Positions 1-11,921 of a DNA stretch of 11,921 bases are shown piece after piece. Below the pieces are notes generated by a model, which saw nothing but the letters and a program-made list of their open reading frames with translations, searched no databases and was not told where the DNA came from. A program made the position numbers and the translations under genes. Positions within the stretch are counted from its first letter, which is position 1. Every line of letters starts with the position of its first letter. Source of the DNA: a virus (lineage: Duplodnaviria; Heunggongvirae; Uroviricota; Caudoviricetes); the IMG/VR virus record IMGVR_UViG_2606217106_000005, positions 1 to 11,921 of that record; one strand, given 5' to 3'.

Positions 1-60
1 CCTTCTTATTCATAAGGCGGGACACTTTCAGGATTTTGAATTTATTCAATTTTTTCCTTT

Positions 61-92
61 CTCCAAAATCTCTCCAAAACTTTTCCCCAAAA
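61..92. repeat. Three phased direct repeats CTCCAAAA (61-68), CTCCAAAA (72-79), CCCCAAAA (85-92) just beyond the int stop; candidate integrase arm-type sites
   Basis: Read directly; spacing 11 and 13 bp. In lambda attL the P' arm with three arm-type Int sites lies next to the int 3' end; the assignment here is by analogy only. Confidence 0.3.
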
Positions 93-156
93 CCAGGGCA
101 CGCATTTTACAACACTTTTTTCCTGAAATGGTGACGGATATTCCATATGATGTTTG

Positions 157-1275
157 TTAAATAACCAACTTAACCCATTCCTGACCTCGGGTATCGTTAT
201 AGCGATCGGTGGTAGCCTGGACTTTATGTCCCAGTAATGTTTTTGTATCGACACCCTGTGCGCGGTACAACCGTTCTGACAGGGAGCGTTGTTCATGAAA
301 TGTTGGCGGTGTTTTTCCTGCTGGTGGAATTATTCCAGCCAGATCTCGCGCTTTGGCGAAGTAATCGCTCAGGTTGTCTTTACTCATCGGTTTTGGTTGT
401 TTCTGGTGCCTACTATGGATTAGATATGGACTTAATATTCTGTCTCGGCACCCATCAATAACTTCTTTTAACGTTATCCCAATGGCATCACAGCGTAGTG
501 TAAGCGGTAACGCCAGGCGCATTCCGGTTTTTCCCTGGGTGATATGCAAGTGTTCGTTCCACACATCTGAAAAACGCATGTGGCAAATGTCATCACGGCG
601 CTGACCAGTAACAATCGCAAGAAGCATTGCGTTACGGATAAAGTGTTTTTCAGGCGTTGCGTTGTAAATTTTTTGCCAGTCTTCCAGGGTGAGTCTGGCT
701 CTGGTTACTTTAGGGATCGGTTTACGGGTAGCCTCCGGAGGATTCCATCCAGGAGGAACTTCTCCTGCATGCTGTGCTTCTTTATAAATATCAACCCATA
801 ATCCACGATTTACTCTCGCTGTGCTGACCATGTCTTTATCCAGCCAATCATCCAGTATTAATGCAAAGTCTCTTACTTCCAGTTCTTTCAATGGATGGTT
901 TCCCAGACGGGAAACCAGGTATGCAGCCATTCGGGCTTTTTCTTTGTGAGTTGTAGCTGCAATATCTCCATTTTTCAGTCGCGTGTCCTGTATTTTCAGA
1001 TATCGATCAACCCATGCCTTTAATCTGATACCCCGACGTTTTGTTGCTGACGGACTTTCATCAATTTTGCGCATGAAATATTCAGCTTCTGCTGCAGCTA
1101 TTCGCTGATTGGCTGTGGAAGCGATTTTTTCTGCCTTACCTTTGTCTGTTCCGAGTCCGTGAAATTTTCCAGTCACAGGATTTTTATACTGGTAGTAAAC
1201 TCTGCCAGTTCTGCGATCAAACTTTTCGTAAAGACCGGCTACGTCAGTGCTGTTTTTTCGTGGCCTCGGTGACAT
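157..1275 (-). CDS. int: Phage tyrosine integrase, lambda Int family
   Basis: 372-aa ORF. C-terminal motifs PPTFHEQRSLSERLY and LLGHKVQATTDRYNDTRGQEW align with the lambda Int catalytic HxxR box and the nucleophile Tyr region (DPPTFHELRSLSARLY / LLGHKSDTMASQYRDDRGREW). Start overlaps the 3' end of the xis-like gene, as in lambda. Confidence 0.93.
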   Translation of the reverse strand: MSPRPRKNSTDVAGLYEKFDRRTGRVYYQYKNPVTGKFHGLGTDKGKAEKIASTANQRIAAAEAEYFMRKIDESPSATKRRGIRLKAWVDRYLKIQDTRLKNGDIAATTHKEKARMAAYLVSRLGNHPLKELEVRDFALILDDWLDKDMVSTARVNRGLWVDIYKEAQHAGEVPPGWNPPEATRKPIPKVTRARLTLEDWQKIYNATPEKHFIRNAMLLAIVTGQRRDDICHMRFSDVWNEHLHITQGKTGMRLALPLTLRCDAIGITLKEVIDGCRDRILSPYLIHSRHQKQPKPMSKDNLSDYFAKARDLAGIIPPAGKTPPTFHEQRSLSERLYRAQGVDTKTLLGHKVQATTDRYNDTRGQEWVKLVI

Positions 1276-1522
1276 GAGTTAAAATCTCCTTCAGTGCATC
1301 ATCATCGCCAGTATGAATTTCCGGCGCAATTCCCGTTTCACCAGGCCCAACAAATACTGCTCGGCGATCTATCAGCCAACGCCCACGAATTTTTTGTGGC
1401 CTTGGAACGATGTATCCTAGTTTTCCGTATTTCACCAGGGTAGTGTTTGTTATTGGGAGACTGAACCGTTTTGGTTTCCACTCGTCGAGCGTTATCAGGT
1501 ACTGTTCGCTCATGGCTATCAC
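1244..1522 (-). CDS. xis: Excisionase, lambda Xis-like
   Basis: 92-aa ORF directly upstream of int and overlapping it by 32 bp. Motif YLITLDEW...GRWLI resembles lambda Xis YLTLQEW...REYLF. True start may be the internal Met (MSEQYL, codon at 1511-1513). Confidence 0.75.
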   Translation of the reverse strand: MIAMSEQYLITLDEWKPKRFSLPITNTTLVKYGKLGYIVPRPQKIRGRWLIDRRAVFVGPGETGIAPEIHTGDDDALKEILTHVTEATKKQH

Positions 1523-1574
1523 TCCGGAACGCGCCAGTTGCAGAATATCAACGACAACTGGCGACGGTTGAACA

Positions 1575-4046
1575 TTAAAAATCAGCCTGACTCGGGATCA
1601 GTTTTTGCCAGATAACTGAAACGTATTTTGCCTGGTAACGGGCGTCATCAAGTGCATTATGGCGCTCACCTTCGAATGGAATAGCCGTTCTGGCATCGAA
1701 GTCTATGGCTTTCCCCAGCTCAACGATTGTGCGTACATCGCGATCGTTGTAGTAACGCCACGGGCAGGGGATCCCCTGCCGTTCGTATGAACGGCGCAAA
1801 ATCGTGTTGTCGAAGTTGGCTCCATTTCCCCAGACCTGAACAAAAAATTCACCGGAGTTTTCGTCGATAAATTCCCGCAATTGTAACAGTGCATCATCTA
1901 ACGGGATTTCATCGGTCATAATGGCAGATTGCGCTTCGCGTGATTGCTTAAGCCACCATTTAATGGTGTCCCGATCAATGACTCCGCCAGCAGTTTCCAG
2001 ATCGATAGTCTTACTAAATTCCGGTCCCATATCTCCGGTTTGCGGATCGAAAAATATTGCACCTATTGAGATGATCGGGGCATCAGGATTTTTTCCCATG
2101 GTTTCAAGGTCGATCATTAGATGGTCACACGTCCTGCTGGTGGATGTGATTTCTTGATGACCGTTCACCTTAATTGAGTGATCTGCCGTCTCGCCAGTTT
2201 CATTATCGCTATCGTGATGCTGATTGCCGCCAGTGTTCTCTTTGTGTGGATGTTCAGCGCCTTCCATTTCCTCCGGATCATCTTCCTGAACTTCAACCTG
2301 ATACTCTTCATCGAATGTTTCCTGGTATGTTGCGTCGCCCATCACCGCGCCACAATCAGGGCAGTTGCCGCCGCCGGTCTGACCGCAGGCGGTGCAGATC
2401 TTTTCCGGTTCCTGTTGCACTACTGGTTCAGGTTGTTTCGTTTCTGGCTCGTTTTGTTGCGTACTTGGGCTGTTTTGTTCCGCTTTCTGGTCGTTCTGTT
2501 CCGTTTCTTGCTGGTTCTGGTTCACAGAATCGCGGGTCTGGATCCCATTAACCCATTTCGGATCATTCGGGTCGCTAATCCCTTCAACAAATTCACCACG
2601 TGATACTGCAAGCAGTTCATCGGCGTCAGGCTGGCTGATATTGGCTGCCTGCATAATTTTGTTTACTTCGTCAGCGGTAACTTTTACTGACCCTGGTTGT
2701 GCGGTCGTGTCAGATGCACCAGTATTTTGTTGTGAACCTGAGTATGTACCGTTTTTGCGGGCGAAATATTCTTCTTTCGTGATTTCAGTAGCCCCAGCAG
2801 ACAGCGCCTTATCCAGACCAGAAAGTTTGTTTGCGCGACCGTATTTTTCGCCATCCTTGTCGGTGAAGAGGAAGTAGAACGGCCCCTCACGTTCTACAGA
2901 TGGTTCGACTTCCACTTTGCATTCGGTTTTTTCGTTGTCTGGAATTGCCGTTTCCACTGCATCAGTTTCTGGTACTGGCGACGAGAGAGTATCAGTTGCG
3001 CTCTGATTTGTTCCTTCATCTTCAAACACGCCCTTTGTAGTCAGGTATTCAGTAATGTATTTGTTCAGTGCCACAGGGTCTTTGTGAATGTCGATCGGAC
3101 GTTCACGGACAAGGCCAAAAATAGTCTGGCGGTCGTAGCGAAGGGCATCAGGCTGTTTGCGCATTGATGCCGAGATACGCTTCCAGTCTTCGCGGTCGTT
3201 GTCGATAACTTCATTTTTTGCCCAGCGATGGATGCTGCCGTCAATGTTTCCGGCATCCACATCACCAGGCCAGAGAGCGTAGGCCAGTTCGTCATCCAGT
3301 GTTTTCCATGTCTGCTTGTATTCGCGATGAATGGCAGCAATGACCGGGCTGATTTTTCCTGTTGAATTTTCAGTGTGCTGTTGATTGGTTCTGGCGCGGG
3401 CGAGATCAACAACAGACGTGTATTTTCCGGTTTCCTTGCGTTCACCTTCGCGACGTTTTTTCCAGATGCGCATCTCTGCCTGAATTTCGGGCCATTTGGC
3501 ACCAGGCTTACATTTATGCTTAACGCACCCGATGGCATGCAGCTTAAGCTCCGGATACATGGCGTTAACTTCTGGCATTTTCATCAACGCTTCAACGATA
3601 TGTCCGTCGAATGTTGCCATGTCTTCCTGCAACAATTCCTGTGCGTTAATAACCATATCAACGGTGATGTTTTCACATGTGTCGAACTTAACCATGAGAG
3701 CGTTCTGTACTTCAGGGGCCAGCTTGTCAAAAGTGACGTTCATCAGATCGGATTCAGTCTCAACCGGGACAAAAGAAGCAGAATCCTCATCCCAGCGGTT
3801 TTCCTGCATATATTCAGCATCCCATGAATCGAGGGCAGGGCGGGGTATGCCAGGTTTATCCTCGCAGATAATAAATTTATAAGCGCAGTCCTGAGCAGCC
3901 GGATAATGTTCCAGGAACTGCCAGTGAAATTTTGCTCGAGCACGGCGTTCGTCGCCAGCTTCAATGGCTGTGGCTACAGCCACAGCGCCTTCTTCCCTTG
4001 TTGCCAGTTCGTCAGGAATGGCGGCGCAAATAAAGACTTTACTCAT
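1575..4046 (-). CDS. Large phage exonuclease with C-terminal DEDDh (DnaQ-like) 3'-5' exonuclease domain, Cys4 zinc ribbon and acidic low-complexity linker
   Basis: 823-aa ORF with GAGG SD. C-terminal motifs MIDLETMG (Exo I, D-x-E), GNGANFDNTIL (Exo II), HNALDDARYQ (Exo III, H...D) are visible. CTACGQTGGGNCPDCG is a C-x2-C-x8-C-x2-C ribbon. Sits where lambdoid phages carry exo/recombination genes; I recall similar proteins annotated exodeoxyribonuclease VIII-like, but cannot verify. Confidence 0.8.
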   Translation of the reverse strand: MSKVFICAAIPDELATREEGAVAVATAIEAGDERRARAKFHWQFLEHYPAAQDCAYKFIICEDKPGIPRPALDSWDAEYMQENRWDEDSASFVPVETESDLMNVTFDKLAPEVQNALMVKFDTCENITVDMVINAQELLQEDMATFDGHIVEALMKMPEVNAMYPELKLHAIGCVKHKCKPGAKWPEIQAEMRIWKKRREGERKETGKYTSVVDLARARTNQQHTENSTGKISPVIAAIHREYKQTWKTLDDELAYALWPGDVDAGNIDGSIHRWAKNEVIDNDREDWKRISASMRKQPDALRYDRQTIFGLVRERPIDIHKDPVALNKYITEYLTTKGVFEDEGTNQSATDTLSSPVPETDAVETAIPDNEKTECKVEVEPSVEREGPFYFLFTDKDGEKYGRANKLSGLDKALSAGATEITKEEYFARKNGTYSGSQQNTGASDTTAQPGSVKVTADEVNKIMQAANISQPDADELLAVSRGEFVEGISDPNDPKWVNGIQTRDSVNQNQQETEQNDQKAEQNSPSTQQNEPETKQPEPVVQQEPEKICTACGQTGGGNCPDCGAVMGDATYQETFDEEYQVEVQEDDPEEMEGAEHPHKENTGGNQHHDSDNETGETADHSIKVNGHQEITSTSRTCDHLMIDLETMGKNPDAPIISIGAIFFDPQTGDMGPEFSKTIDLETAGGVIDRDTIKWWLKQSREAQSAIMTDEIPLDDALLQLREFIDENSGEFFVQVWGNGANFDNTILRRSYERQGIPCPWRYYNDRDVRTIVELGKAIDFDARTAIPFEGERHNALDDARYQAKYVSVIWQKLIPSQADF

Positions 4047-4139
4047 TTTGTTTTAACCTCATGACAGATTTAAGGATGAACAAATCCCTGCCATTGCTGG
4101 CATATAAGAATGAAACCGGATATTTATTACGGAACTGTT

Positions 4140-4331
4140 TTAAAGACCTGCCGGGATTTCGATATTATCCTGGTGAATAACTTTATCGACCGGGTAACAG
4201 TTACCGGGAATTTTCTGTTCGGTTGCTGCAGTCATACACTCCTGCATTGTCCTGTGAACACTGACTGCAATATCAACTGGCTCTCCGGAAACAAGAAAAA
4301 CTGTCAGAACAAGTGCAAATGCTGTATTCAT
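4140..4331 (-). CDS. Small hypothetical protein (63 aa) with hydrophobic signal/TM-like N-terminus
   Basis: Start ATG overlaps the stop of the upstream small ORF (ATGA, translational coupling). N-terminus MNTAFALVLTVFLVSG is hydrophobic. Located in the early-left region where lambda has kil/cIII-type small genes. Confidence 0.5.
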   Translation of the reverse strand: MNTAFALVLTVFLVSGEPVDIAVSVHRTMQECMTAATEQKIPGNCYPVDKVIHQDNIEIPAGL

Positions 4332-4516
4332 TGCCAGCATCCTTTTTGTATCGGACGTAAACGGGCCAACATTGAAAGAATGCATATTTTATTTAATAGC
4401 TCCCGTTCGTGTTTTCTCTTGTTAATGGCATCTTCAGTAAATACAGGGTTACTGATAGTGACACCAATTTCAAAACAACCTTCAGACGTATTAACGTTTG
4501 GTAATAACGTTTTCAT
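4328..4516 (-). CDS. Small hypothetical protein (62 aa)
   Basis: Internal Met chosen over the 97-aa ORF-track start because it is preceded by GAGGG 7 nt upstream; stop overlaps the next gene start. Confidence 0.45.
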   Translation of the reverse strand: MKTLLPNVNTSEGCFEIGVTISNPVFTEDAINKRKHERELLNKICILSMLARLRPIQKGCWQ

Positions 4517-5005
4517 TATCGCGCCCTCAACAATGAGTTTTGTGATGCGGTGCCTGGTGCCTCCAGGTGACGTTAACCAGTTAACAATTAACGCCGGATA
4601 CAGAGAATCCAACCATAACACTGTTTTTGGTTTTAACTGTTCCGCGTGCGCTTAGCCGCATTCACCGCATCACAAAATTCACTTTAAAAAGGGCGGCAGA
4701 GCAGTCACGGAGTAAAACTGATACCGCCAAACGTCACCAGAAAATTGATAACAGAGGGCGTTGCAGCGGGGTTGTCACTTAAGCGTATGGTCAACCTGAC
4801 AACCCGGTGTCCTCAACGGGGGAAGGAATACCCCCGCCATACTTACCGCCGCGCCATTTCGCGGATTGCCACAACCAGAAGCGCACGGTCGAAGAAATTT
4901 AACGACAAGACTTATATGCAAAGGGATCTCGCCGTGCGCTTTCGTGTTATGCCCTGACTTTTCAGGGTAAATTAACCTGTGGAAACCTGTTTTTACTGGC
5001 GCTAA

Positions 5006-5245
5006 TCAGTTAGCGTTTCTGGCTAACCAGCGATGCGCGGCAGCTTCGGTTTTAAACGTTTTACTTTTGGTATACGTCATCGCGGTAAACGTGCCGTCCT
5101 GATTGGGAAACACGCCACATACCAGAGATTCGTTGTTGCCAAGCTCGATAGTATCCATGCTGACCTCATTTCCCCTTAACGCTGGGGTAGCGGAACTAAA
5201 AACCTGCTGCGCTGTTATACAAAGTGTTCCCGCCGTCATGTTCAT
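5006..5245 (-). CDS. Hypothetical first gene of the early-left operon (79 aa)
   Basis: First ORF downstream of the predicted leftward promoter; GAGG upstream of the MNM start cluster; no family recognised. Confidence 0.5.
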   Translation of the reverse strand: MNMTAGTLCITAQQVFSSATPALRGNEVSMDTIELGNNESLVCGVFPNQDGTFTAMTYTKSKTFKTEAAAHRWLARNAN

Positions 5246-5339
5246 ACGCCTCGGGCTGGCTACTTAATCCCTGACCACTGCCGGGTAACTCTAGGTATTG
5301 CCCTGTATTGTGTGGGACGGGATGGGTTGGTATGGGAAA

Positions 5340-5408
5340 ACTATAGGAAATGCCTAATTGCTTGTCAATAGGCTATGCCTAATGATTTGGGTGCGACCTA
5401 ATAGGTGA
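5340..5408 (-). promoter_or_regulatory. P_L-like early-left promoter with three operator sites (O_L)
   Basis: Minus-strand TTGACA (plus coords 5363-5368), 17-bp spacer, TATAGT (plus coords 5340-5345). Operator-like sites TAGG-N5-CCTA (5343-5355), TAGGC-tat-GCCTA (5369-5381) and CCTAATAGG (5397-5405), centres about 26 bp apart. Confidence 0.6.
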
Positions 5409-5476
5409 TGGTTTGTGGGAGAGGTAGTAGGAGTTAACTAACGGGAACTAGGAATTTCCCGTCGGACCATATAAGT

Positions 5477-5953
5477 TTAAGTTCCTGTCTTGGTGATGTT
5501 CTGGCTTTTCCGTTTTGATTCTTGATTTTTCAGATAGTTAGCTACCTTCATTTCCATTGCGGCAATGTAGGCGCGAACGTCATGATCAACCCAACTAGGC
5601 TCCGTAGCATTTCCAGATAAGAGGAAAGCCACAATTGCTCTTTTTTCATCAGAGGCGGCTTGATAAAGGCTGTTTATGTCTAAAAGTTCACTTTTTGTAT
5701 CTGAAGTGGATGGGGTTGGTATGGGGTATTCGTTAAGCCCCCAATGCTCTGGACCAACCACATCAGAAAAGAAACGCCATAGTTCTGGAAGTTTGTCTTT
5801 ACTTATCGAACCTTTCTTAATCCAGTCATGGATTGATGGTGGTTGGACTTTGAAATGACGTGCGATTTCCGCCTTTGATTTGACGGCTCCTGATGCAATT
5901 TTTTTGTTGATGGCCTGCTCTATCGCTCGGCCTAAGTCTTTACCACTAAGCAT
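5477..5953 (-). CDS. racR: Prophage repressor, RacR-like HTH protein
   Basis: 158-aa ORF between outward-facing promoters. HTH-like segment SKAEIARHFKVQPPSIHDWIKKGS. Length and N-terminus match my recollection of E. coli Rac prophage RacR; followed divergently by ydaS/ydaT-like genes, as in Rac. Confidence 0.8.
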   Translation of the reverse strand: MLSGKDLGRAIEQAINKKIASGAVKSKAEIARHFKVQPPSIHDWIKKGSISKDKLPELWRFFSDVVGPEHWGLNEYPIPTPSTSDTKSELLDINSLYQAASDEKRAIVAFLLSGNATEPSWVDHDVRAYIAAMEMKVANYLKNQESKRKSQNITKTGT

Positions 5954-5981
5954 TGCTTAATAGTCTCCTATGCGCATCGCG

Positions 5982-6050
5982 TTAGGCAATCCCTACTCTC
6001 GAAGCGTTAGGCATAGCCTATTGACAATCGCATTAGGCTAAGCCTAATAT
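5982..6050 (+). promoter_or_regulatory. P_R-like early-right promoter with three operator sites (O_R), including a perfect 17-bp palindrome
   Basis: TTGACA at 6021-6026, 18-bp spacer, TAATAT at 6045-6050. Perfect palindrome ATTAGGCTAAGCCTAAT at 6032-6048 overlaps spacer and -10; TTAGGC-ata-GCCTA at 6007-6020; TTAGGC half-site at 5982-5987. Confidence 0.65.
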
Positions 6051-6077
6051 TATTGTGTGTTTTTTGGAGTTCATTCG

Positions 6078-6401
6078 ATGAAAAAAGATAACTATTCATT
6101 CAAACGAGCTTGTGCTGTTGTCGGTGGGCAATCAGCAATGGCTAGGCTTTTAGGTGTATCTCCTCCAAGCGTAAATCAATGGATCAAAGGTGTACGTCAG
6201 TTGCCTGCTGAGAGATGTCCTGCGATTGAACGAGCAACAAAAGGTGGTGTCCTGTGTGAAGAACTTCGTCCTGATGTTGATTGGACATACTTACGACGCT
6301 CGTCATGTTATTCGCAGAATATGTCGATGAAGCAACCAAATGACGAAAACGATCATACCCGAAGCATCAAGAGGCAAATGATTCATGAAAATCAAACATG
6401 A
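6078..6401 (+). CDS. ydaS: Cro-like HTH protein, YdaS-like
   Basis: ATG at 6078 preceded by GGAG (6066-6069). Motif GGQSAMARLLGVSPPSVNQWIKGVRQLPAERCPAIERAT is typical of YdaS/Cro-like proteins. First gene after P_R. Confidence 0.8.
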   Translation: MKKDNYSFKRACAVVGGQSAMARLLGVSPPSVNQWIKGVRQLPAERCPAIERATKGGVLCEELRPDVDWTYLRRSSCYSQNMSMKQPNDENDHTRSIKRQMIHENQT

Positions 6402-6810
6402 GCACATCCGCATGGCGATGAATGCCTGGGCATATCCTGATGGTGAGAAAGTTCCAGCAGCTGGAATAACCCAGGCTTATTTTGAGTTGGGTATGACGTT
6501 CCCAGAACTGTATGACGACAGCCATCCGGAAGCCCTGGCTCGCAATACCCAGAAAATTTTCCGCTGGGTAGAGAAAGACACCCCTGATGCAGTTGAAAAA
6601 ATTCAGGCGTTGTTACCAGCGATCGAAAAGGCAATGCCACCTTTGCTGGTGGCCAGAATGCGCAGCCACAGTTCAGCTTATTTTCGGGAGCTGGTGGAGA
6701 CGCGGGAACGACTGGTGAGAGACGCTGATGATTTTGTCGCAGTGGCGATCGCTGGTTTCAACCAGATGAATCGTGGTGGCCCTGCAGGAAATATTGTGGC
6801 TGTGCATTGA
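6385..6810 (+). CDS. ydaT: YdaT-like protein, putative toxic partner of YdaS
   Basis: 141-aa ORF overlapping the ydaS stop by 17 bp; GAGG SD; same position and size as Rac prophage ydaT. Confidence 0.7.
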   Translation: MKIKHEHIRMAMNAWAYPDGEKVPAAGITQAYFELGMTFPELYDDSHPEALARNTQKIFRWVEKDTPDAVEKIQALLPAIEKAMPPLLVARMRSHSSAYFRELVETRERLVRDADDFVAVAIAGFNQMNRGGPAGNIVAVH

Positions 6811-6881
6811 CTCGCAATATTCATACCGGATCACTTCCGGCAATTTGTGAGTAAAAAGATTCGGTATCAAAAGAGGTGAGT

Positions 6882-7952
6882 ATGGCTAACGCCTGGCTCA
6901 GATTATGGCATGACATGCCAAATGACCCTAAGTGGCGAACAATTGCCAGGGTGTCAGGGCAGCCAATTGCAACAGTGATGGCAGTGTATATCCACCTCCT
7001 GGTGAGCGCGTCACGAAATGTCACGCGAGGTCACATTGATGTCACGACAGAAGATTTGGCAAGTGCGCTCGACGTGACAGAAGAGGTAATTGATTCAATT
7101 TTGCAGACGATGCAGGGGCGGGTACTTGATGGTGATTTAATCACTGGATGGGAAAAACGCCAGGTGCTTAAAGAGGACAACGGCAATATTTCGCAAACCG
7201 CAAAATCTCCTGCAGAGCGCAAGAGGGCGCAGCGAGAGAGGGAAAGAAAGCGGGAACAAAATGGCGATTGTCACGGCGCGTCACGAAATGTCACGCACAT
7301 GTCACGACGAGTCACGACAGATAAAGATACAGATAAAGATACAGATCAAGAAGATCAAAACACTATGGTCCATGGCGTAAAAAACGCCACGAACCAGGCA
7401 GGGGATGTTCAGACCGTCAATCTTGGTCAGCCAGCAGGCACGACACCGGAAGCCGATTCAGCGTATGCGCTGAAAGCCGATTCGGGCGCTGTGCAGCAGG
7501 TGATGACCGCAAGGCCGGAGCAATCACACCAACTGCAGCAGCCCGAAGCCGATTCCGCCATTCAGCGGGAAGCCGATCGGGTAGTCCCGGAAAACACCGG
7601 GCAGTCTGTGGGACGAGTGGATTATCCGGATGTGTTCGAACAGGTCTGGCGGGAGTACCCGTTGCGTGCTGGGGCAAACCCGAAGAAATCCGCTTTCAGT
7701 GCCTGGAAGGCCAGATTACGCGAGGGGGTGCCACCAGAGGCCATGCTGGATGGCGTGAGGCGTTACGCAAGATACTTGGCGGCTACCGGGAAAACGGGAA
7801 CGGAATTTGTTCAGCGAGCGACGACGTTTTTTGGACCGGACCGGAATTTTGAAAACCCCTGGTTGCTCCCGGTAAGCGGCACGAACAACCAGCGTTGTGT
7901 TAATCATATTTCTGAACCGGACACCGAAATTCCGCCGGGATTCAGAGGGTAA
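6882..7952 (+). CDS. Phage replication initiation protein (replisome organizer, O-like) containing the putative origin
   Basis: ATG at 6882 with GAGG SD. N-terminus AWLRLWHDMPNDPKWRTIARVSGQPIATVMAVYIHLL resembles phage replisome-organizer N-domains. C-terminal FEQVWREYPLRAGANPKKSAFSAWKAR...WLLP resembles the conserved C-domain of phage replication proteins. Iteron clusters lie inside the gene. Confidence 0.75.
   Translation: MANAWLRLWHDMPNDPKWRTIARVSGQPIATVMAVYIHLLVSASRNVTRGHIDVTTEDLASALDVTEEVIDSILQTMQGRVLDGDLITGWEKRQVLKEDNGNISQTAKSPAERKRAQRERERKREQNGDCHGASRNVTHMSRRVTTDKDTDKDTDQEDQNTMVHGVKNATNQAGDVQTVNLGQPAGTTPEADSAYALKADSGAVQQVMTARPEQSHQLQQPEADSAIQREADRVVPENTGQSVGRVDYPDVFEQVWREYPLRAGANPKKSAFSAWKARLREGVPPEAMLDGVRRYARYLAATGKTGTEFVQRATTFFGPDRNFENPWLLPVSGTNNQRCVNHISEPDTEIPPGFRG
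7006..7050 (+). repeat. Iteron cluster 1: four TCAC(G) repeats at one-helical-turn spacing
   Basis: TCACG at 7011, 7021, 7042 and TCACA at 7031; inverted copy CGTGAC at 7073-7078; a 21-bp block GCGCGTCACGAAATGTCACGC is repeated exactly at 7276-7296. Confidence 0.6.
7271..7342 (+). repeat. Iteron cluster 2 (five TCACG repeats) followed by a 12-bp tandem duplication AGATAAAGATAC x2
   Basis: TCACG at 7271, 7281, 7291, 7302, 7312 (spacing 10-11 bp); tandem 12-mers at 7319-7330 and 7331-7342, then degenerate AGATCAAG copies; A/T-rich flank consistent with a DNA-unwinding element. Confidence 0.6.
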
Positions 7953-7989
7953 CAGATTTCAGGTCATGGGGTAATTTTCAGGAGGGCTT

Positions 7990-8412
7990 GTGGCAAAAGT
8001 TTTTACACAAGAAGAGCGGGAAAAAATTAAAGGGCAGGTTGTTGAACTCGTACGCCAGAGTGGGCGCGAGACGTTACGACAACTGGAAACTAAAACTGGG
8101 GCAACAAGATATCTGATGAGCGTTCTGGCCAGAGAGCTGGTTGCCAGTGGCGATGTATACAATTCTGGCTACGGGTTATTCCCGTCTGAACAGGCTCGTA
8201 AAGACTGGCAAAATGCCCGCAAAAAACTCTCAAGGGCAAAGCTGAAGAAACCATCTGCGGTTGATCCGGACCTTATCTGGTCATTACCAGATGGCGAAAT
8301 ACGCCGCTACGACAGGCGTCTGAACATAATCTGTCTCGAGTGCCGGAAGAGCGAAGTTATGCAGCGCGTACTGGCGTTTTATCAGGGGAATTTTGAGGAG
8401 GTGGTGCGGTGA
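7990..8412 (+). CDS. Hypothetical protein (140 aa), first gene of a translationally coupled trio
   Basis: GTG start with GGAGGG SD (7981-7986); stop overlaps the next start (GTGA). Confidence 0.55.
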   Translation: MAKVFTQEEREKIKGQVVELVRQSGRETLRQLETKTGATRYLMSVLARELVASGDVYNSGYGLFPSEQARKDWQNARKKLSRAKLKKPSAVDPDLIWSLPDGEIRRYDRRLNIICLECRKSEVMQRVLAFYQGNFEEVVR

Positions 8413-8663
8413 GTGAATCAAAATGCCAGGTTAATGGCAACAAGATAGAACCATGTGCAGCACTGGCAAAGTCCCTTGAGCATGATGCTGAATACACGAT
8501 GCGAAAAGGTCTGCTGATATACAAAATCTGGAATGAGAGTTTAACTCGCGGTCCTGATTTTGTGATGTTGCGTTCCGGTGAATTTTCTAAATTACCAGTT
8601 CGGGTTTCATTTTGTCCGTTCTGTGGTGAAAGTCTGAAAACGTGGGAGAACAGAAATGAATGA
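8409..8663 (+). CDS. Hypothetical small Cys4 protein (84 aa), possible zinc ribbon
   Basis: GTG start after GAGGAGG; cysteines in CQVNGNKIEPC and CPFCGES suggest a metal-binding ribbon; overlaps both neighbours. Confidence 0.5.
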   Translation: MSESKCQVNGNKIEPCAALAKSLEHDAEYTMRKGLLIYKIWNESLTRGPDFVMLRSGEFSKLPVRVSFCPFCGESLKTWENRNE

Positions 8664-8967
8664 AATTAAAGAAATACCAGTAGTACGTGATGAATATGGC
8701 TGCTGGACGCATCCTGAATATGAAAAATTCTGTGACGGTCGGGAATATATTTCAACGGAAGAGTTTAACGCCTGGATGGAGGAAAATAATCTTCAATACG
8801 TCCTCTGCTTCAGAGATGAAGGATGTGCTGACCTTGATGCGTGTGATGCTGATATTTCTGCATGGGAACCGGAACGACCAGAGGGCAATGGATGGTTTAT
8901 TGGTTCAATACATGACACCGAAGATGGCCCGGTTTGTGTATGGCTGAGAAATAAGGCCGAAGCATAA
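8656..8967 (+). CDS. Hypothetical acidic Cys-rich protein (103 aa)
   Basis: ATG overlapping the upstream stop (ATGAATGA); GGGAGA SD; six cysteines; no family recognised. Confidence 0.55.
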   Translation: MNEIKEIPVVRDEYGCWTHPEYEKFCDGREYISTEEFNAWMEENNLQYVLCFRDEGCADLDACDADISAWEPERPEGNGWFIGSIHDTEDGPVCVWLRNKAEA

Positions 8968-9272
8968 AGGCTATAAACCGACTAACAACTAAATACTGAA
9001 GATTTAAATCAGAAACGATTTTTATTAAATCCTTAACCGGAGGGATTCTGCACCCTCAGAACATCAGGAGGCCGTCTGAAAGGGCGGAACAGATAATGCT
9101 TACGTTGAAACATTTTATCGACATACCAACATGGTTAGCCGTCATTGCTTTTGTTAAAATACACATCCACTTTTCTGTGCAATGTTTAACCACTGGTCAT
9201 ATCAAATGGCATTCATGCGAACCATGATATAGAATCATGGCTTGAGAGAGTCGATGAAAGCGCAACTATGGT

Positions 9273-9851
9273 ATGAGAGACATTGATGTAAGAAAGGCTG
9301 TGCATGCCAAGATTCTGAGAGATCATCATAAAGATCCTGACACCCTAATCATTGATGAGTTTACGATGAATCTAGGGGCTAGCAGAGCTGATATAGCAGT
9401 GATCAATGGGCTTATACATGGTTATGAGTTGAAGAGCAAGAGTGATAACTTGCTCAGATTACCAGCGCAGGTGCAACATTACTCATCAGTGATGGATAAA
9501 GTAACTTTGGTTGTCTCTGATTGCCATCTTTATGATGCTTTAAGCATAGTTCCATCATGGTGGGGGATAAAGCAAGTTACGCAAGGTGCACGGCAAGGTA
9601 TCCATTTAAAAACAATTCGAACTAGCAAGTTGAATCCACAAGTGGACAAACTTTCCTTAACAATGCTTCTTTGGAAAGATGAATTGCTTTCCCTATTAAG
9701 TGATGTAGGGGAGCTACAGAATTTGAAAAATAAACCTAAACGCGTCTTATGGTCAAAACTCGCCAATAGTATGGATGTTGGCGAGCTTCGTGAAGCTGTT
9801 CGAGTTAAACTTAAAGCCCGTAAAGAGTGGCGAGTTGCTCAACAACCTTAG
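9273..9851 (+). CDS. PD-(D/E)XK-type nuclease-fold protein (192 aa), sce7726-like by recollection
   Basis: Motif arrangement IIDEF (E29) ... RADIAVING (D40) ... GYELKSK (E52-x-K54) matches the restriction-endonuclease-like core. Putative extended -10 (TGaTATAGA, 9225-9233) upstream. Confidence 0.7.
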   Translation: MRDIDVRKAVHAKILRDHHKDPDTLIIDEFTMNLGASRADIAVINGLIHGYELKSKSDNLLRLPAQVQHYSSVMDKVTLVVSDCHLYDALSIVPSWWGIKQVTQGARQGIHLKTIRTSKLNPQVDKLSLTMLLWKDELLSLLSDVGELQNLKNKPKRVLWSKLANSMDVGELREAVRVKLKARKEWRVAQQP

Positions 9852-10908
9852 TTATGTGATGGTTTTGCCCAATCCTACGCCATACCTCTGGGCTACCAAA
9901 TTTATAGTTACCAGAGGGATTGGCTTTGTAGGCTTGATACTCGTTTGCATAATATTCTATGTCTCTATCTCCCGCACAGAATGTAGGCCCTGAATATTCT
10001 CGATGAGCAAGAATATCCTCACTATGTTTACCATATTGTTCATAACCAAAGCGATTAGCTACTCTTCCTCGAAATACCCAAAAGTCATTATCTCCAGAGT
10101 ATCTGACGCTGGCAGATACGCTAGGGAATCGCGTCGAAAGCCTATTAAAGTCGGGGTGCTGTACTCCATAATCACTATAAATCACATTTCTGGCAAGTTC
10201 TTTTCTATTCATTAAACTCTGCCATAAAATCCACTCGATTCGAGGTTGAGAATATAGACCAACAGAAATATCACTGAGATCTGTAGGAAATGAACCCCCA
10301 GAAAGAATCACTTTTCTGTATTCATTGAGGTGCGCCAGATTGTTTATCAATCCCATTGCCAAAGTATATAGTTCGCCGGAATTAATTTTATCCTCGGTTA
10401 ACTCATCTCTTAAGTCAATAATTATATCAATATTTGATAAAGGAATTCCCAGATGATTAATGTAATGCGTTATTAATTGTGGGTTAACCAGATCTAACGT
10501 GGTTAATCTCAAGCATATTTCATTCTGCATTAATTCATCAATCGCTCTTTTATAGTTAGATGGGCGAGTTGGTGAACTGACAGGAATAACTCTTATCCCC
10601 ATATCTCTAACTTGATTAACCGCATTTATTATAGGGTAATGATCTTCAGGAGAAATAAAATGCTCTTCAATTAATAATCCATCAATATAAACACCTTGCA
10701 TATCTGAGCAAGATTTTGAGACTTTCTTTCCGAACTCTATAAGAGTCTCGTTATAACTCTTTAAGGCAATACCTGAATCAGGGTCAATTGGCACTGGTTC
10801 AATTTCGAGTAATGGCAAAATTTTTGATTTCTTTTCAATGGATAGCTGCGATAAAGCTGATAACTCAGAACGTTTCGCTTTCAGAATAGGAATATATGAA
10901 ATTGTCAT
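9811..10908 (-). CDS. Beta-protein / sce7725-like family protein (365 aa), function unknown
   Basis: Long ORF with AAGG SD 8 nt upstream of ATG. N-terminal MTISYIPILKAKRSELSAL matches my memory of the conserved start of this family. No Walker or other catalytic motifs recognised. 3' end overlaps the convergent 192-aa gene by 41 bp. Confidence 0.7.
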   Translation of the reverse strand: MTISYIPILKAKRSELSALSQLSIEKKSKILPLLEIEPVPIDPDSGIALKSYNETLIEFGKKVSKSCSDMQGVYIDGLLIEEHFISPEDHYPIINAVNQVRDMGIRVIPVSSPTRPSNYKRAIDELMQNEICLRLTTLDLVNPQLITHYINHLGIPLSNIDIIIDLRDELTEDKINSGELYTLAMGLINNLAHLNEYRKVILSGGSFPTDLSDISVGLYSQPRIEWILWQSLMNRKELARNVIYSDYGVQHPDFNRLSTRFPSVSASVRYSGDNDFWVFRGRVANRFGYEQYGKHSEDILAHREYSGPTFCAGDRDIEYYANEYQAYKANPSGNYKFGSPEVWRRIGQNHHITKVVEQLATLYGL

Positions 10909-11339
10909 GTTAATACCTTATACAGAATCAATTAACAATTAATGGTTCTTCGGACATTGAAATTTATATCGCAAAAATTGGCAAACTCTCCTCGACTACT
11001 CACTTGTGGGTATCCTGGCGTAAAAGGAATGACTTGGCAATACCCGGTGTGATCATAAGTCATTGAAAATGATCATTTTTATCAGTCTTTCTTCCATGAT
11101 GAATGCTAATGCCATTTGATTTGTTGAGGTGAAAACTGTTAAAAATCAAAACGATGTAATTGAAATGAACGTTCGGTAGCATTCACGCTTTAAATGTTTC
11201 TTTTGTGCTGATTGGATGAATTTGGGTCACTTCTGATGAGAGATGTTGCAGGAAAAGAAGTTGGCATTGATCTATTGGATAGTTAGAATTACTGCGGGTG
11301 CTTGAGGCTATCTGCCTCAGGCATGAACACCAAAAGGCA

Positions 11340-11420
11340 GATAGAGAAAAGCCCCAGTTAACATTACGCGTCCGGCAAGACGCTTAACATTAATCTGAGG
11401 CCAATTTCATGCTTTGCACA
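11340..11420 (-). ncRNA. Candidate Sok-like antisense RNA of the hok locus (approximate)
   Basis: Inferred only from the canonical hok/sok organisation (antisense RNA opposite the hok mRNA leader/mok start); no clear promoter or terminator could be pinned down by eye. Confidence 0.25.
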
Positions 11421-11465
11421 TGTAGGTTAGCCTCTTACGTGCCGAAAGGCAAGGAGAAGCAGGCT

Positions 11466-11621
11466 ATGAAGCAGCAAAAGGCGATGTTAATCGCCCTGAT
11501 CGTCATCTGTTTAACCGTCATAGTGACGGCACTGGTAACGAGGAAAGACCTCTGCGAGGTACGAATCCGAACCGGCCAGACGGAGGTCGCTGTCTTCACA
11601 GCTTACGAACCTGAGGAGTAA
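11466..11621 (+). CDS. hokD: Hok-family type I toxin (HokD/RelF-like), 51 aa
   Basis: Translation MKQQKAMLIALIVICLTVIVTALVTRKDLCEVRIRTGQTEVAVFTAYEPEE has the Hok signature (single TM helix, LTRK..LCE.R) and matches my recollection of E. coli RelF/HokD. GGAG SD; in-frame upstream ATG at 11409 gives a 70-aa mok-like extension. A 9-bp inverted repeat (11308-11316 / 11336-11344) lies in the leader. Confidence 0.85.
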   Translation: MKQQKAMLIALIVICLTVIVTALVTRKDLCEVRIRTGQTEVAVFTAYEPEE

Positions 11622-11921
11622 GAGACCAGGCGGGGGAGAATCCCATAAGCGCTAACTTAAGGGTTGAACCATCTGAAGAATGCGACGCCTCGGTGCCTCG
11701 TTAAGACGATGCCTCGCGTTCTTCAATTGCGTTTTGTAGGCTGTCAGGGATACTGTCCCACGAATGGCCACCTGTAAGCTCCAGATGACCATTTTTGTTA
11801 TTCTCCACAACGAGTTAGTTCTTCTTTTCGGATCCGGCACTTCTGGGGGGGGAATCCAGCGATGGCTGGATTATGTCGTCAATTAAAAATGCGGCGAGTA
11901 GATTAGCAAATATCCACGCTT

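What the first reader, a model, noticed from the sequence alone, without database searches (positions are those of the whole stretch)
11300..11621. hok/sok-type type I toxin-antitoxin locus next to the cargo island
The hok gene is seen directly. The leader holds two alternative hairpins, GAGGC-N5-GCCTC (11304-11318) and the 9-bp stem CTATCTGCC / GGCAGATAG (11308-11316 / 11336-11344), typical of the metastable folding that regulates hok mRNAs. Unusually, the upstream ORF is in frame with hok (ATG 11409) and no alternative-frame ORF spans hok, so the mok-equivalent may be an N-terminally extended Hok. The locus could stabilise the prophage or add abortive-infection activity.
Basis: partly seen in the sequence, partly recalled or inferred. 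Interest (0 to 1): 0.45.

Follow-up and report, generated by a model that had tools for sequence, protein, structure and literature searches.

The report
Known hokD toxin-antitoxin locus, IS186-cut
This is an ordinary, already described hok/mok/sok (HokD/HokW-type) RNA-controlled toxin-antitoxin locus of a Rac-like E. coli prophage.

Summary
A 51-aa Hok ORF lies at 11466-11621 (Pfam HOK_GEF, E 1.2e-23; annotated HokD in RefSeq). The leader 11296-11471 matches Rfam RF01794 at 119.8 bits. Both hairpins are at the stated coordinates.

- **In-frame upstream ORF.** The ORF starting at ATG 11409 (70 aa) is not unusual. K-12 mokC/hokC, the mokA pseudogene/hokA, phage 933W mokW/hokW and Rac-SA53 mok/hok all share one stop codon. 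The mok-to-hok ATG distance is 57 nt in these loci and 58 nt, out of frame, in R1 hok and hokB.
- **Sok.** By homology to the annotated sokW, Sok maps to 11347-11417 on the minus strand. Its -10 hexamer (TAACCT, 11424-11429) is identical to the one mutated experimentally in sokW.
- **What was missed.** From about 11645 to the window end the sequence is the end of IS186/IS421 (280 of 281 bases identical to K-12 IS186A). It is inserted 23 nt after the hok stop codon. The insertion breaks the 3' hairpin and separates the fold-back (fbi) element and the terminator from the mRNA. K-12 hokC and hokE carry the same kind of insertion and are regarded as inactivated.

So this is a known family, in a known prophage position, with a known type of lesion. 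Interest is low.

The parts
11261..11289 (+). hok/mok promoter: -35 TTGGCA (11261-11266), 17-nt spacer, -10 TAGAAT (11284-11289)
   Evidence: 10 of 12 consensus match, the only promoter-like site in 11100-11921. The -10 aligns with the TATAAT of K-12 hokC. The transcript start is inferred at G11296, which is also position 1 of the Rfam model.
11296..11308 (+). tac element (5' end of hok mRNA, GGGUGCUUGAGGC)
   Evidence: Identical in hokW and hokC. In the uninterrupted allele the minimum-energy fold pairs nt 1-12 with nt 375-387 (fbi).
11298..11324 (+).
   Evidence: -19.6 kcal/mol, z -5.1. Conserved with compensatory changes in hokC, hokB, hokE and an R1-like hok. The role is inferred from R1 (PMC9841398).
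11296..11355 (+).
   Evidence: Rfam RF01794 consensus structure. Fold of -28.5 kcal/mol, z -4.45.
11351..11401 (+). Long hairpin in which GCCCCAG (ucb) pairs with CUGAGGC, the mok Shine-Dalgarno region (GAGG 11397-11400). This is the closed state. It is also the complement of the Sok terminator hairpin.
   Evidence: Present in the centroid of the window transcript and in the minimum-energy fold of the native full-length allele. Also in the Rfam structure.
11409..11621 (+). mok ORF (70 aa), in frame with hok; an N-terminally extended Hok, homologous to MokW and MokC
   Evidence: MokD is MLCTCRLASYVPKGKEKQA+Hok, MokW is MLNTCRLASYVPKGKEKQA+Hok.
11347..11417 (-). Sok antisense RNA (about 71 nt): single-stranded 5' tail over the mok start, a long hairpin, then a U tail
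   Evidence: Mapped from the sokW feature of phage 933W (5' end 8 nt inside mokW, 71 nt) and from K-12 sokC. Fold of -30.2 kcal/mol, z -4.9. Expression was not tested.
11424..11452 (-). Sok promoter: -35 TTGCCT (11447-11452), 17-nt spacer, -10 TAACCT (11424-11429)
   Evidence: The window is identical to hokW here. The sokW 'pro-less' mutant changed exactly this heptamer (TAGGTTA to CCGGCTC, primers YO-421/422) and lost antitoxin activity (PMC8621323). It is too weak a consensus match to be listed by the promoter scan.
11451..11456 (+). hok Shine-Dalgarno AAGGAG
   Evidence: Read from the sequence. K-12 Qin hokD identity with the window begins at about this point.
11466..11621 (+). hok toxin gene (HokD, 51 aa)
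   Evidence: Pfam HOK_GEF 1.2e-23. Annotated as hokD, WP_000813254.1.
11622..11644 (+). Remnant of the native 3' UTR. 11633-11644 (GGGGAGAATCCC) is the IS186 target copy. The native 9-bp hairpin is reduced to 4 bp.
   Evidence: Alignment with uninterrupted alleles. The identical junction with a 12-bp duplication on both sides is seen in strain 2013C-3181. Hairpin energy falls from -18.3 to -7.2 kcal/mol.
11645..11921 (.). Terminal part of IS186/IS421 (boundary uncertain by about 4 nt), running off the window
   Evidence: 280 of 281 bases identical to the K-12 IS186A end. Matches IS421 transposase loci on chromosomes and plasmids.

Best explanation
The region is a hok-mok-sok type I toxin-antitoxin cassette of the HokD/HokW subgroup. 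It sits in a Rac-like lambdoid prophage between the replication/cargo genes and the DUF968-RusA-Q module.

Shown from sequence and homology: a sigma-70 promoter (11261-11289) should start the hok mRNA at 11296. The nascent 5' end can fold into an 11-bp hairpin that hides the tac element. The mok Shine-Dalgarno can be sequestered by the upstream box (ucb). Mok (ATG 11409) is in frame with hok and reads across the hok ribosome-binding site. A 71-nt antisense Sok (11347-11417, minus strand) covers the mok start.

Inferred from R1 hok/sok and from hokW-sokW: Sok blocks mok translation, and therefore hok translation, and the duplex is cleaved by RNase III. Hok kills by damaging the inner membrane when Sok decays.

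In this copy IS186/IS421 has inserted 23 nt after the stop codon. The fold-back (fbi) element and the terminator are now at least the length of the IS away, and the 3' hairpin is broken. I infer that the stable, closed full-length mRNA reservoir needed for delayed killing cannot form. The copy is most likely disabled for that role, or reduced to a simple Sok-repressed hok gene, as proposed for K-12 hokC and hokE.
For: Family identity: Pfam HOK_GEF 1.2e-23. Rfam RF01794 at 119.8 bits, E 1.9e-27, full length, the highest score among all hok loci tested. RefSeq annotates hokD at near-identical loci. The locus is 94.5% identical to 933W mokW/hokW/sokW and 96.8% to Rac-SA53 mok/hok.

Promoters: hok promoter. 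The Sok -10 is identical to the experimentally mutated sokW -10.

Structures.

IS insertion: homology to uninterrupted alleles stops at 11644. From 11641 the window is 280/281 identical to the K-12 IS186A end. The identical junction plus a 12-bp target duplication, followed by the native fbi and terminator tail, is seen in strain 2013C-3181. The same site is hit in a Qin relBE-hokD locus.

The native allele folds with tac/fbi end pairing: nt 1-12 with nt 375-387. The IS tail offers nothing better than background: -22.1 kcal/mol, and 26% of control segments do as well.

Precedent: IS186 lies 20 and 19 nt after the hokC and hokE stop codons in K-12. The literature regards these loci as inactivated and their fbi as disrupted (PMC12214031; PMC3562002).
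Against: No expression data exist for this copy. Whether Sok and hok RNAs are made, and where the hok transcript ends inside IS186, is unknown.

The K-12 gef (hokC::IS186) mRNA is reported to be still transcribed and regulated by its antisense RNA (PMC3562002). 'Disabled' may therefore overstate the effect.

The other end of the IS lies outside the window, so a complete IS and the displaced fbi are inferred from a genome with the identical junction, not seen here.

The Sok promoter is a weak consensus match (4/6 and 3/6).
Confidence: 0.8

Rival explanations
1. The locus is a fully working hok/sok module that stabilises the prophage, aborts phage infection or assists lysis on induction. The IS insertion would be functionally neutral.
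For: All 5' control elements and both ORFs are intact. The close homologue hokW-sokW is an active toxin-antitoxin pair that speeds lysis and doubles Sp5 phage release (PMC8621323). K-12 gef with IS186 is still transcribed and antisense-regulated.
Against: The fbi, the terminator and the 3' hairpin are removed or broken by IS186. In R1 the tac/fbi closed form is what makes the stable mRNA reservoir (PMC9841398). IS-bearing hokC and hokE are regarded as inactivated. Even intact chromosomal hokA, hokB and hokC loci did not mediate post-segregational killing (bioRxiv 10.1101/2025.08.07.668861).
Confidence: 0.17
2. The in-frame mok marks a new regulatory variant in which the 70-aa extended Hok is the real toxin or regulator. 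The locus would then be mechanistically different from known hok/sok.
For: Any ribosome that starts at 11409 must make the 70-aa fusion, because there is no stop codon before hok. RefSeq labels MokC as a 'toxin'.
Against: The arrangement is not new. The same 57-nt in-frame spacing is annotated for mokC, mokA, mokW and Rac-SA53 mok, and occurs in an R1-like plasmid hok. A 1-nt difference (58 nt) puts mok out of frame in R1 and hokB with no change to the rest of the leader. This argues that translation through the hok start is what matters, not the product (PMC9841398).
Confidence: 0.03

Closest known systems
hokW-mokW-sokW of Stx2 phages 933W / Sp5 (VT2-Sakai)
   Same: 94.5% DNA identity over the leader and ORF. 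Same 213-nt mok and 156-nt hok sharing one stop codon. Same 71-nt antisense position. Identical Sok -10 and -35 region. Same 18-nt extension of the Sok hairpin. Also located in a lambdoid prophage.
   Different: Four C-terminal residues differ (TAYEPEE versus VDYESEK). A few substitutions lie around the mok start. hokW keeps its native 3' UTR, whereas this copy carries IS186.
hokD (relF) of the E. coli K-12 Qin prophage
   Same: Identical 51-aa protein. Identical DNA from the hok Shine-Dalgarno to 11643 apart from 1 mismatch.
   Different: K-12 hokD has lost the promoter, tac, mok start and sok, which are replaced by relBE, but keeps the native 3' tail. The window copy is the reverse: intact 5' control region and a disrupted 3' tail.
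hokC (gef)/mokC/sokC and hokE of E. coli K-12
   Same: In-frame mok (mokC). Leader structure at 118.3 bits to the same Rfam model. IS186 inserted about 20 nt after the stop codon in the same G-run/C-run hairpin.
   Different: Chromosomal rather than prophage-borne. 82% DNA identity. Lacks the 18-nt Sok hairpin extension.
hok/sok (parB) of plasmid R1
   Same: The same set of elements: tac, metastable 5' hairpin, ucb, mok, Sok, fbi in the native allele, and a Hok toxin of the same Pfam family.
   Different: R1 mok is 58 nt upstream and out of frame. R1 Hok is reported as 44% identical to the close homologue HokW (PMC8621323). It is plasmid-borne and has proven post-segregational killing.

Membership tests
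[quoted passage not shown] | Hok/Gef small membrane toxin ORF of about 50 aa | tested here: met
   Pfam PF01848 HOK_GEF, E 1.2e-23, 82.9 bits against a cut-off of 22. Annotated HokD.
[quoted passage not shown] | Conserved structured hok mRNA leader (tac, 5' stem, ucb, mok SD hairpins) | tested here: met
   Rfam RF01794 full-length match, 119.8 bits against a gathering score of 59. Folds. Compensatory changes across hokB, hokC, hokE and an R1-like hok.
[quoted passage not shown] | mok leader ORF with its own SD, starting 57-58 nt upstream of hok and reading across the hok start | tested here: met
   ATG 11409, GAGG 11397-11400, 57 nt upstream, 70 aa, homologous to MokW and MokC.
[quoted passage not shown] | Cis-encoded antisense Sok RNA over the mok translation-initiation region, with promoter and terminator hairpin | tested here: met
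   At sequence level only. Position maps from the sokW and sokC annotations. The -10 is identical to the mutated sokW -10. Hairpin plus U tail, z -4.9. Transcription cannot be tested here.
[quoted passage not shown] | 3' fold-back (fbi) element pairing with tac, and a 3' terminator/processing hairpin | tested here: not met
   Present in the uninterrupted allele, where the minimum-energy fold pairs nt 1-12 with nt 375-387. In the window it is displaced by IS186 from 11645. No significant substitute exists in the IS tail. This copy is therefore a member by descent but structurally incomplete.
[quoted passage not shown] | Toxicity of Hok and neutralisation by Sok | not testable with these tools
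   Shown experimentally only for the close homologue hokW-sokW (PMC8621323).
IS186/IS421 (IS4 family) insertion | Terminal sequence of the element | tested here: met
   280 of 281 bases identical to the annotated K-12 IS186A end. Matches IS421 transposase loci.
IS186/IS421 (IS4 family) insertion | GC-rich target with a direct duplication of about 10-13 bp at both ends | tested here: inconclusive
   The left copy GGGGAGAATCCC is at 11633-11644. The right end lies outside the window. The identical junction in strain 2013C-3181 has the 12-bp duplication on both sides.

The most novel reading that the evidence does not exclude
Without its fbi element, the IS186-truncated hok mRNA would be permanently in the open, Sok-accessible state. 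The cassette would then change from a delayed post-segregational killer into a fast sensor that kills as soon as Sok transcription falls, for example on host shut-off by an infecting phage. Recurrent IS186 hits at the same hairpin in hokC, hokE and hokD would then be a selected rewiring rather than simple inactivation.
Probability: 0.07. Interest if true: 0.4.

Novelty: already known. Interest (0 to 1): 0.1.

Why it matters
It matters little beyond correct annotation. The family, its prophage location, the in-frame mok arrangement and IS186 insertion just downstream of hok genes are all documented.

Two practical points follow. First, the hokD CDS alone, which is all RefSeq annotates, hides the fact that this copy has an intact mok/sok control region but a broken 3' end, the mirror image of K-12 hokD. 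Second, any claim that this cassette stabilises the prophage or provides abortive infection should not be carried over from R1 or hokW without testing the IS-bearing allele.

Tried and rejected
1. I first read GCCTCGGTGCCTC (11688-11700) as the fbi partner of tac, because it lies at the expected distance and can form about 12 pairs. I rejected this once the stretch proved to be inside IS186. Its duplex energy with tac is no better than 26% of control segments.

2. I first read the identity of 11641-11693 to K-12 'hokC' as a hokC-type 3' UTR. It is IS186A sequence in both.

3. Top whole-window hits that seemed to cover 1-11921 were joined pieces. In strain 2013C-4991 the IS421 copy is elsewhere and hokD is uninterrupted.

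4. The promoter scan did not report the Sok promoter. It was placed by homology to sokW instead.

5. Two R1-type plasmid loci (L011, L012) gave no Rfam hit. L011 has an IS150-family and L012 an ISKpn28 transposase gene just upstream of hok, so they were not used for structure comparison.

6. A formal pair count on the MAFFT alignment A3 was not run, because 1-nt register shifts in hokB and hokE misalign the outer pairs. Per-sequence folding was used instead.

7. The antisense ORF 11435-11599 (54 aa, GTG) was considered and dismissed as the usual by-product of a GC-balanced coding strand. It has no support.

Full report
**Observation**

The window holds a 51-aa ORF at 11466-11621 on the + strand, preceded by AAGGAG. 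It matches Pfam HOK_GEF (E 1.2e-23, 82.9 bits against a cut-off of 22). Near-identical DNA in RefSeq E. coli genomes is annotated hokD, WP_000813254.1.

The leader 11296-11471 matches Rfam RF01794 over the full model (119.8 bits, gathering score 59, E 1.9e-27). This was the highest score among the hok loci I compared: hokC 118.3, hokW 113.5, hokB 109.7, an R1-like hok 104.9 and hokE 84.4.

**The two hairpins**

GAGGC-N5-GCCTC is the tip of an 11-bp hairpin formed by the first 30 nt of the transcript (11298-11308 / 11314-11324). It folds at -19.6 kcal/mol with z = -5.1, and 0 of 200 shuffles fold as well.

The 9-bp stem is the core of a 60-nt domain closed by GGGUGCUU / AAGCCCC (-28.5 kcal/mol, z = -4.45). 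This is the Rfam consensus structure.

The two folds share bases, so they are alternatives. Both are preserved in hokC, hokB, hokE and an R1-like plasmid hok with changes on both sides of pairs, for example G-C to A-U at two positions of the small hairpin.

This fits what is described for R1. There the tac element first pairs with a region immediately downstream (metastable), pairs with fbi in the full-length mRNA, and pairs with ucb in the processed, translatable mRNA (PMC9841398).

In the window the ucb candidate (AAGCCCCAG, 11349-11357) can pair either with tac or with the mok Shine-Dalgarno region CUGAGGC (11395-11401). The second pairing appears in the folds.

**The in-frame mok is normal**

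The ORF from ATG 11409 is 70 aa and in frame with hok. No other + frame has a start that reads across hok.

The same layout is annotated in several places:
- K-12: mokC 16751-16960 and hokC 16751-16903 share a stop codon. The mokA pseudogene and hokA also share a stop.
- Phage 933W: mokW and hokW share a stop, and a 71-nt sokW overlaps the first 9 nt of mokW.
- Phage Rac-SA53.

The N-terminal extension is homologous across these loci: MLCTCRLASYVPKGKEKQA here, MLNTCRLASYVPKGKEKQA in MokW and MLNTCRVPLTDRKVKEKRA in MokC.

I measured the mok-to-hok ATG distance in seven loci. It is 57 nt (in frame) in the window, hokC and an Atlantibacter R1-like hok; the mokW/hokW annotation gives the same 57 nt. 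It is 58 nt (out of frame) in R1 hok and K-12 hokB. The R1 value agrees with the positions given in PMC9841398. Two loci were uninformative: the Klebsiella R1-like hok has no upstream ATG, and hokE has in-frame ATGs at 36 and 99 nt.

A single-base spacing difference therefore decides the frame within one family. This agrees with the published view that translation through the hok start matters, not the Mok product.

**Sok**

Transferring the sokW coordinates (5' end 8 nt inside mokW, 71 nt) and the sokC coordinates places Sok at 11347-11417 on the minus strand. That RNA has a 9-nt single-stranded 5' tail, a long hairpin and a GGGGCUUUU tail (-30.2 kcal/mol, z = -4.9).

Its promoter would be TTGCCT (11447-11452), a 17-nt spacer, then TAACCT (11424-11429). 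It is a weak consensus match and the scan missed it. The window is identical to hokW here.

The published sokW promoter-less mutant changed exactly this heptamer and lost antitoxin activity, as read from primers YO-421/422 in PMC8621323.

The hok promoter is TTGGCA-17-TAGAAT at 11261-11289, a 10 of 12 match.

Homology to uninterrupted hokD loci stops at 11644. From 11641 to the window end the sequence is 280 of 281 identical to the annotated end of K-12 IS186A. It also matches IS421 transposase loci on chromosomes and plasmids.

Strain 2013C-3181 carries the identical hokD-IS junction. There the element is flanked on both sides by GGGGAGAATCCC. After the second copy comes the native tail TCGCCACCTCTGATGTGTCAGGCATCCTCAACGCACCCGCACTTAACCCGCTTCGGCGGGTTTTGTTTTTT.

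A Qin-type relBE-hokD locus in strain RM10410 has IS421 at the same site. In K-12, IS186 lies 20 nt after hokC and 19 nt after hokE. At least 829 of 5,426 complete E. coli genomes have some hok-IS186 junction of this kind.

**Consequence (inferred)**

The uninterrupted allele (strain ST866) gives a 420-nt transcript. Its minimum-energy fold pairs nt 1-12 (tac) with nt 375-387 (CCUCAACGCACCC), has a terminal terminator hairpin, and has the mok SD buried. That is the textbook closed hok mRNA.

In the window that partner is displaced by the IS. The IS tail offers no better pairing than 26% of control segments. The 9-bp hairpin just after the stop codon falls from -18.3 to -7.2 kcal/mol. No terminator-like site lies in 11100-11921.

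By analogy with R1, the stable inert mRNA reservoir needed for delayed killing should not form. This also fits the literature view that IS-bearing hokA, hokC and hokE are inactivated and that IS186 disrupts the hokC fbi.

The caveat is that K-12 gef mRNA, which ends inside IS186, is reported to be still made and antisense-regulated.

**Context**

The window matches Rac-like lambdoid prophages that lie next to potC in other strains. The gene order is integrase, excisionase, exonuclease, kil/dicB region, DicF RNA, repressor pair, replication genes, a two-gene cargo (sce7726-family protein and Beta protein), then hokD.

In complete prophages hokD is followed by DUF968, RusA and Q genes. hok genes are known to be enriched in prophages (bioRxiv 10.1101/2025.08.07.668861).

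The close homologue hokW-sokW is an experimentally verified toxin-antitoxin pair that depends on RNase III and Hfq. It accelerates lysis and doubles Sp5 phage release on induction (PMC8621323).

**Verdict**

The 'unusual' feature is standard for the hokC/hokD/hokW subgroup. The one feature specific to this copy, the IS186 insertion in the 3' UTR, is itself a documented kind of lesion.

The novelty rating is 'already known' and interest is low. The identification is close to certain. The functional inference, that this copy is disabled for reservoir-type killing, is about 60-65% likely.

Noticed in passing
window 4691-4742 (-): Full-length DicF antisense sRNA (Rfam RF00039, 76.7 bits, E 6.7e-16) in the kil/dicB region of the prophage, as in Qin/Rac-type prophages.
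   Followed up: no
window 9273-9851 (+) and 9811-10908 (-): Convergent gene pair whose 3' ends overlap by 41 nt: an sce7726-family protein and a 'Beta protein' (Pfam PF14350, 3.8e-52). In PADLOC the Beta protein matches PD-Lambda-2_C (1.8e-41) and the partner matches a model named 'cll' (2.4e-28). This may be a phage-defence cargo. Only one PD-Lambda-2 component was found among the proteins scanned.
   Followed up: partly
L015 912-3580 versus window 9273-10908: In strain 2013C-3181 the slot between the conserved replication-module genes and hokD holds four different genes (a Q-family antiterminator and three hypothetical proteins) instead of sce7726/Beta. The position just upstream of hok looks like a variable cargo hotspot.
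   Followed up: partly
window 11601-11609 (GCTTACGAA; Tyr47 codon TAC 11604-11606): The Tyr codon sits in a UACG context. A-to-I mRNA editing in hokC, hokD and hokE is reported to encode a Cys at the conserved position 46 of Hok homologues, with hokD about 6% edited (PMC12214031). I infer that this Tyr47 codon is that site. The motif is intact here.
   Followed up: no
window 11366-11383: An 18-nt insertion relative to K-12 hokC (ACGCGTCCGGCAAGACGC). It adds a GC-rich extension to the tip of the Sok terminator hairpin and to the ucb/SD-mok hairpin. It is shared with hokW of 933W.
   Followed up: partly
L003 2620-3134 (K-12 Qin) versus window 11452-11643: K-12 hokD is identical to the window only from the hok Shine-Dalgarno onward. 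Its promoter, tac, mok start and sok are replaced by relBE. The K-12 copy and the window copy are thus damaged at opposite ends.
   Followed up: yes
phage record PP818812.1 13219-13580: A phage deposited as 'Actinobacillus phage vB_Apl-pPE4' carries a hok locus 96.7% identical to this E. coli prophage locus. That is an unexpected host label for an E. coli lambdoid-type sequence.
   Followed up: no
window 11435-11599 (-): A 54-aa GTG ORF lies antisense to hok. It has no support and is probably spurious.
   Followed up: no
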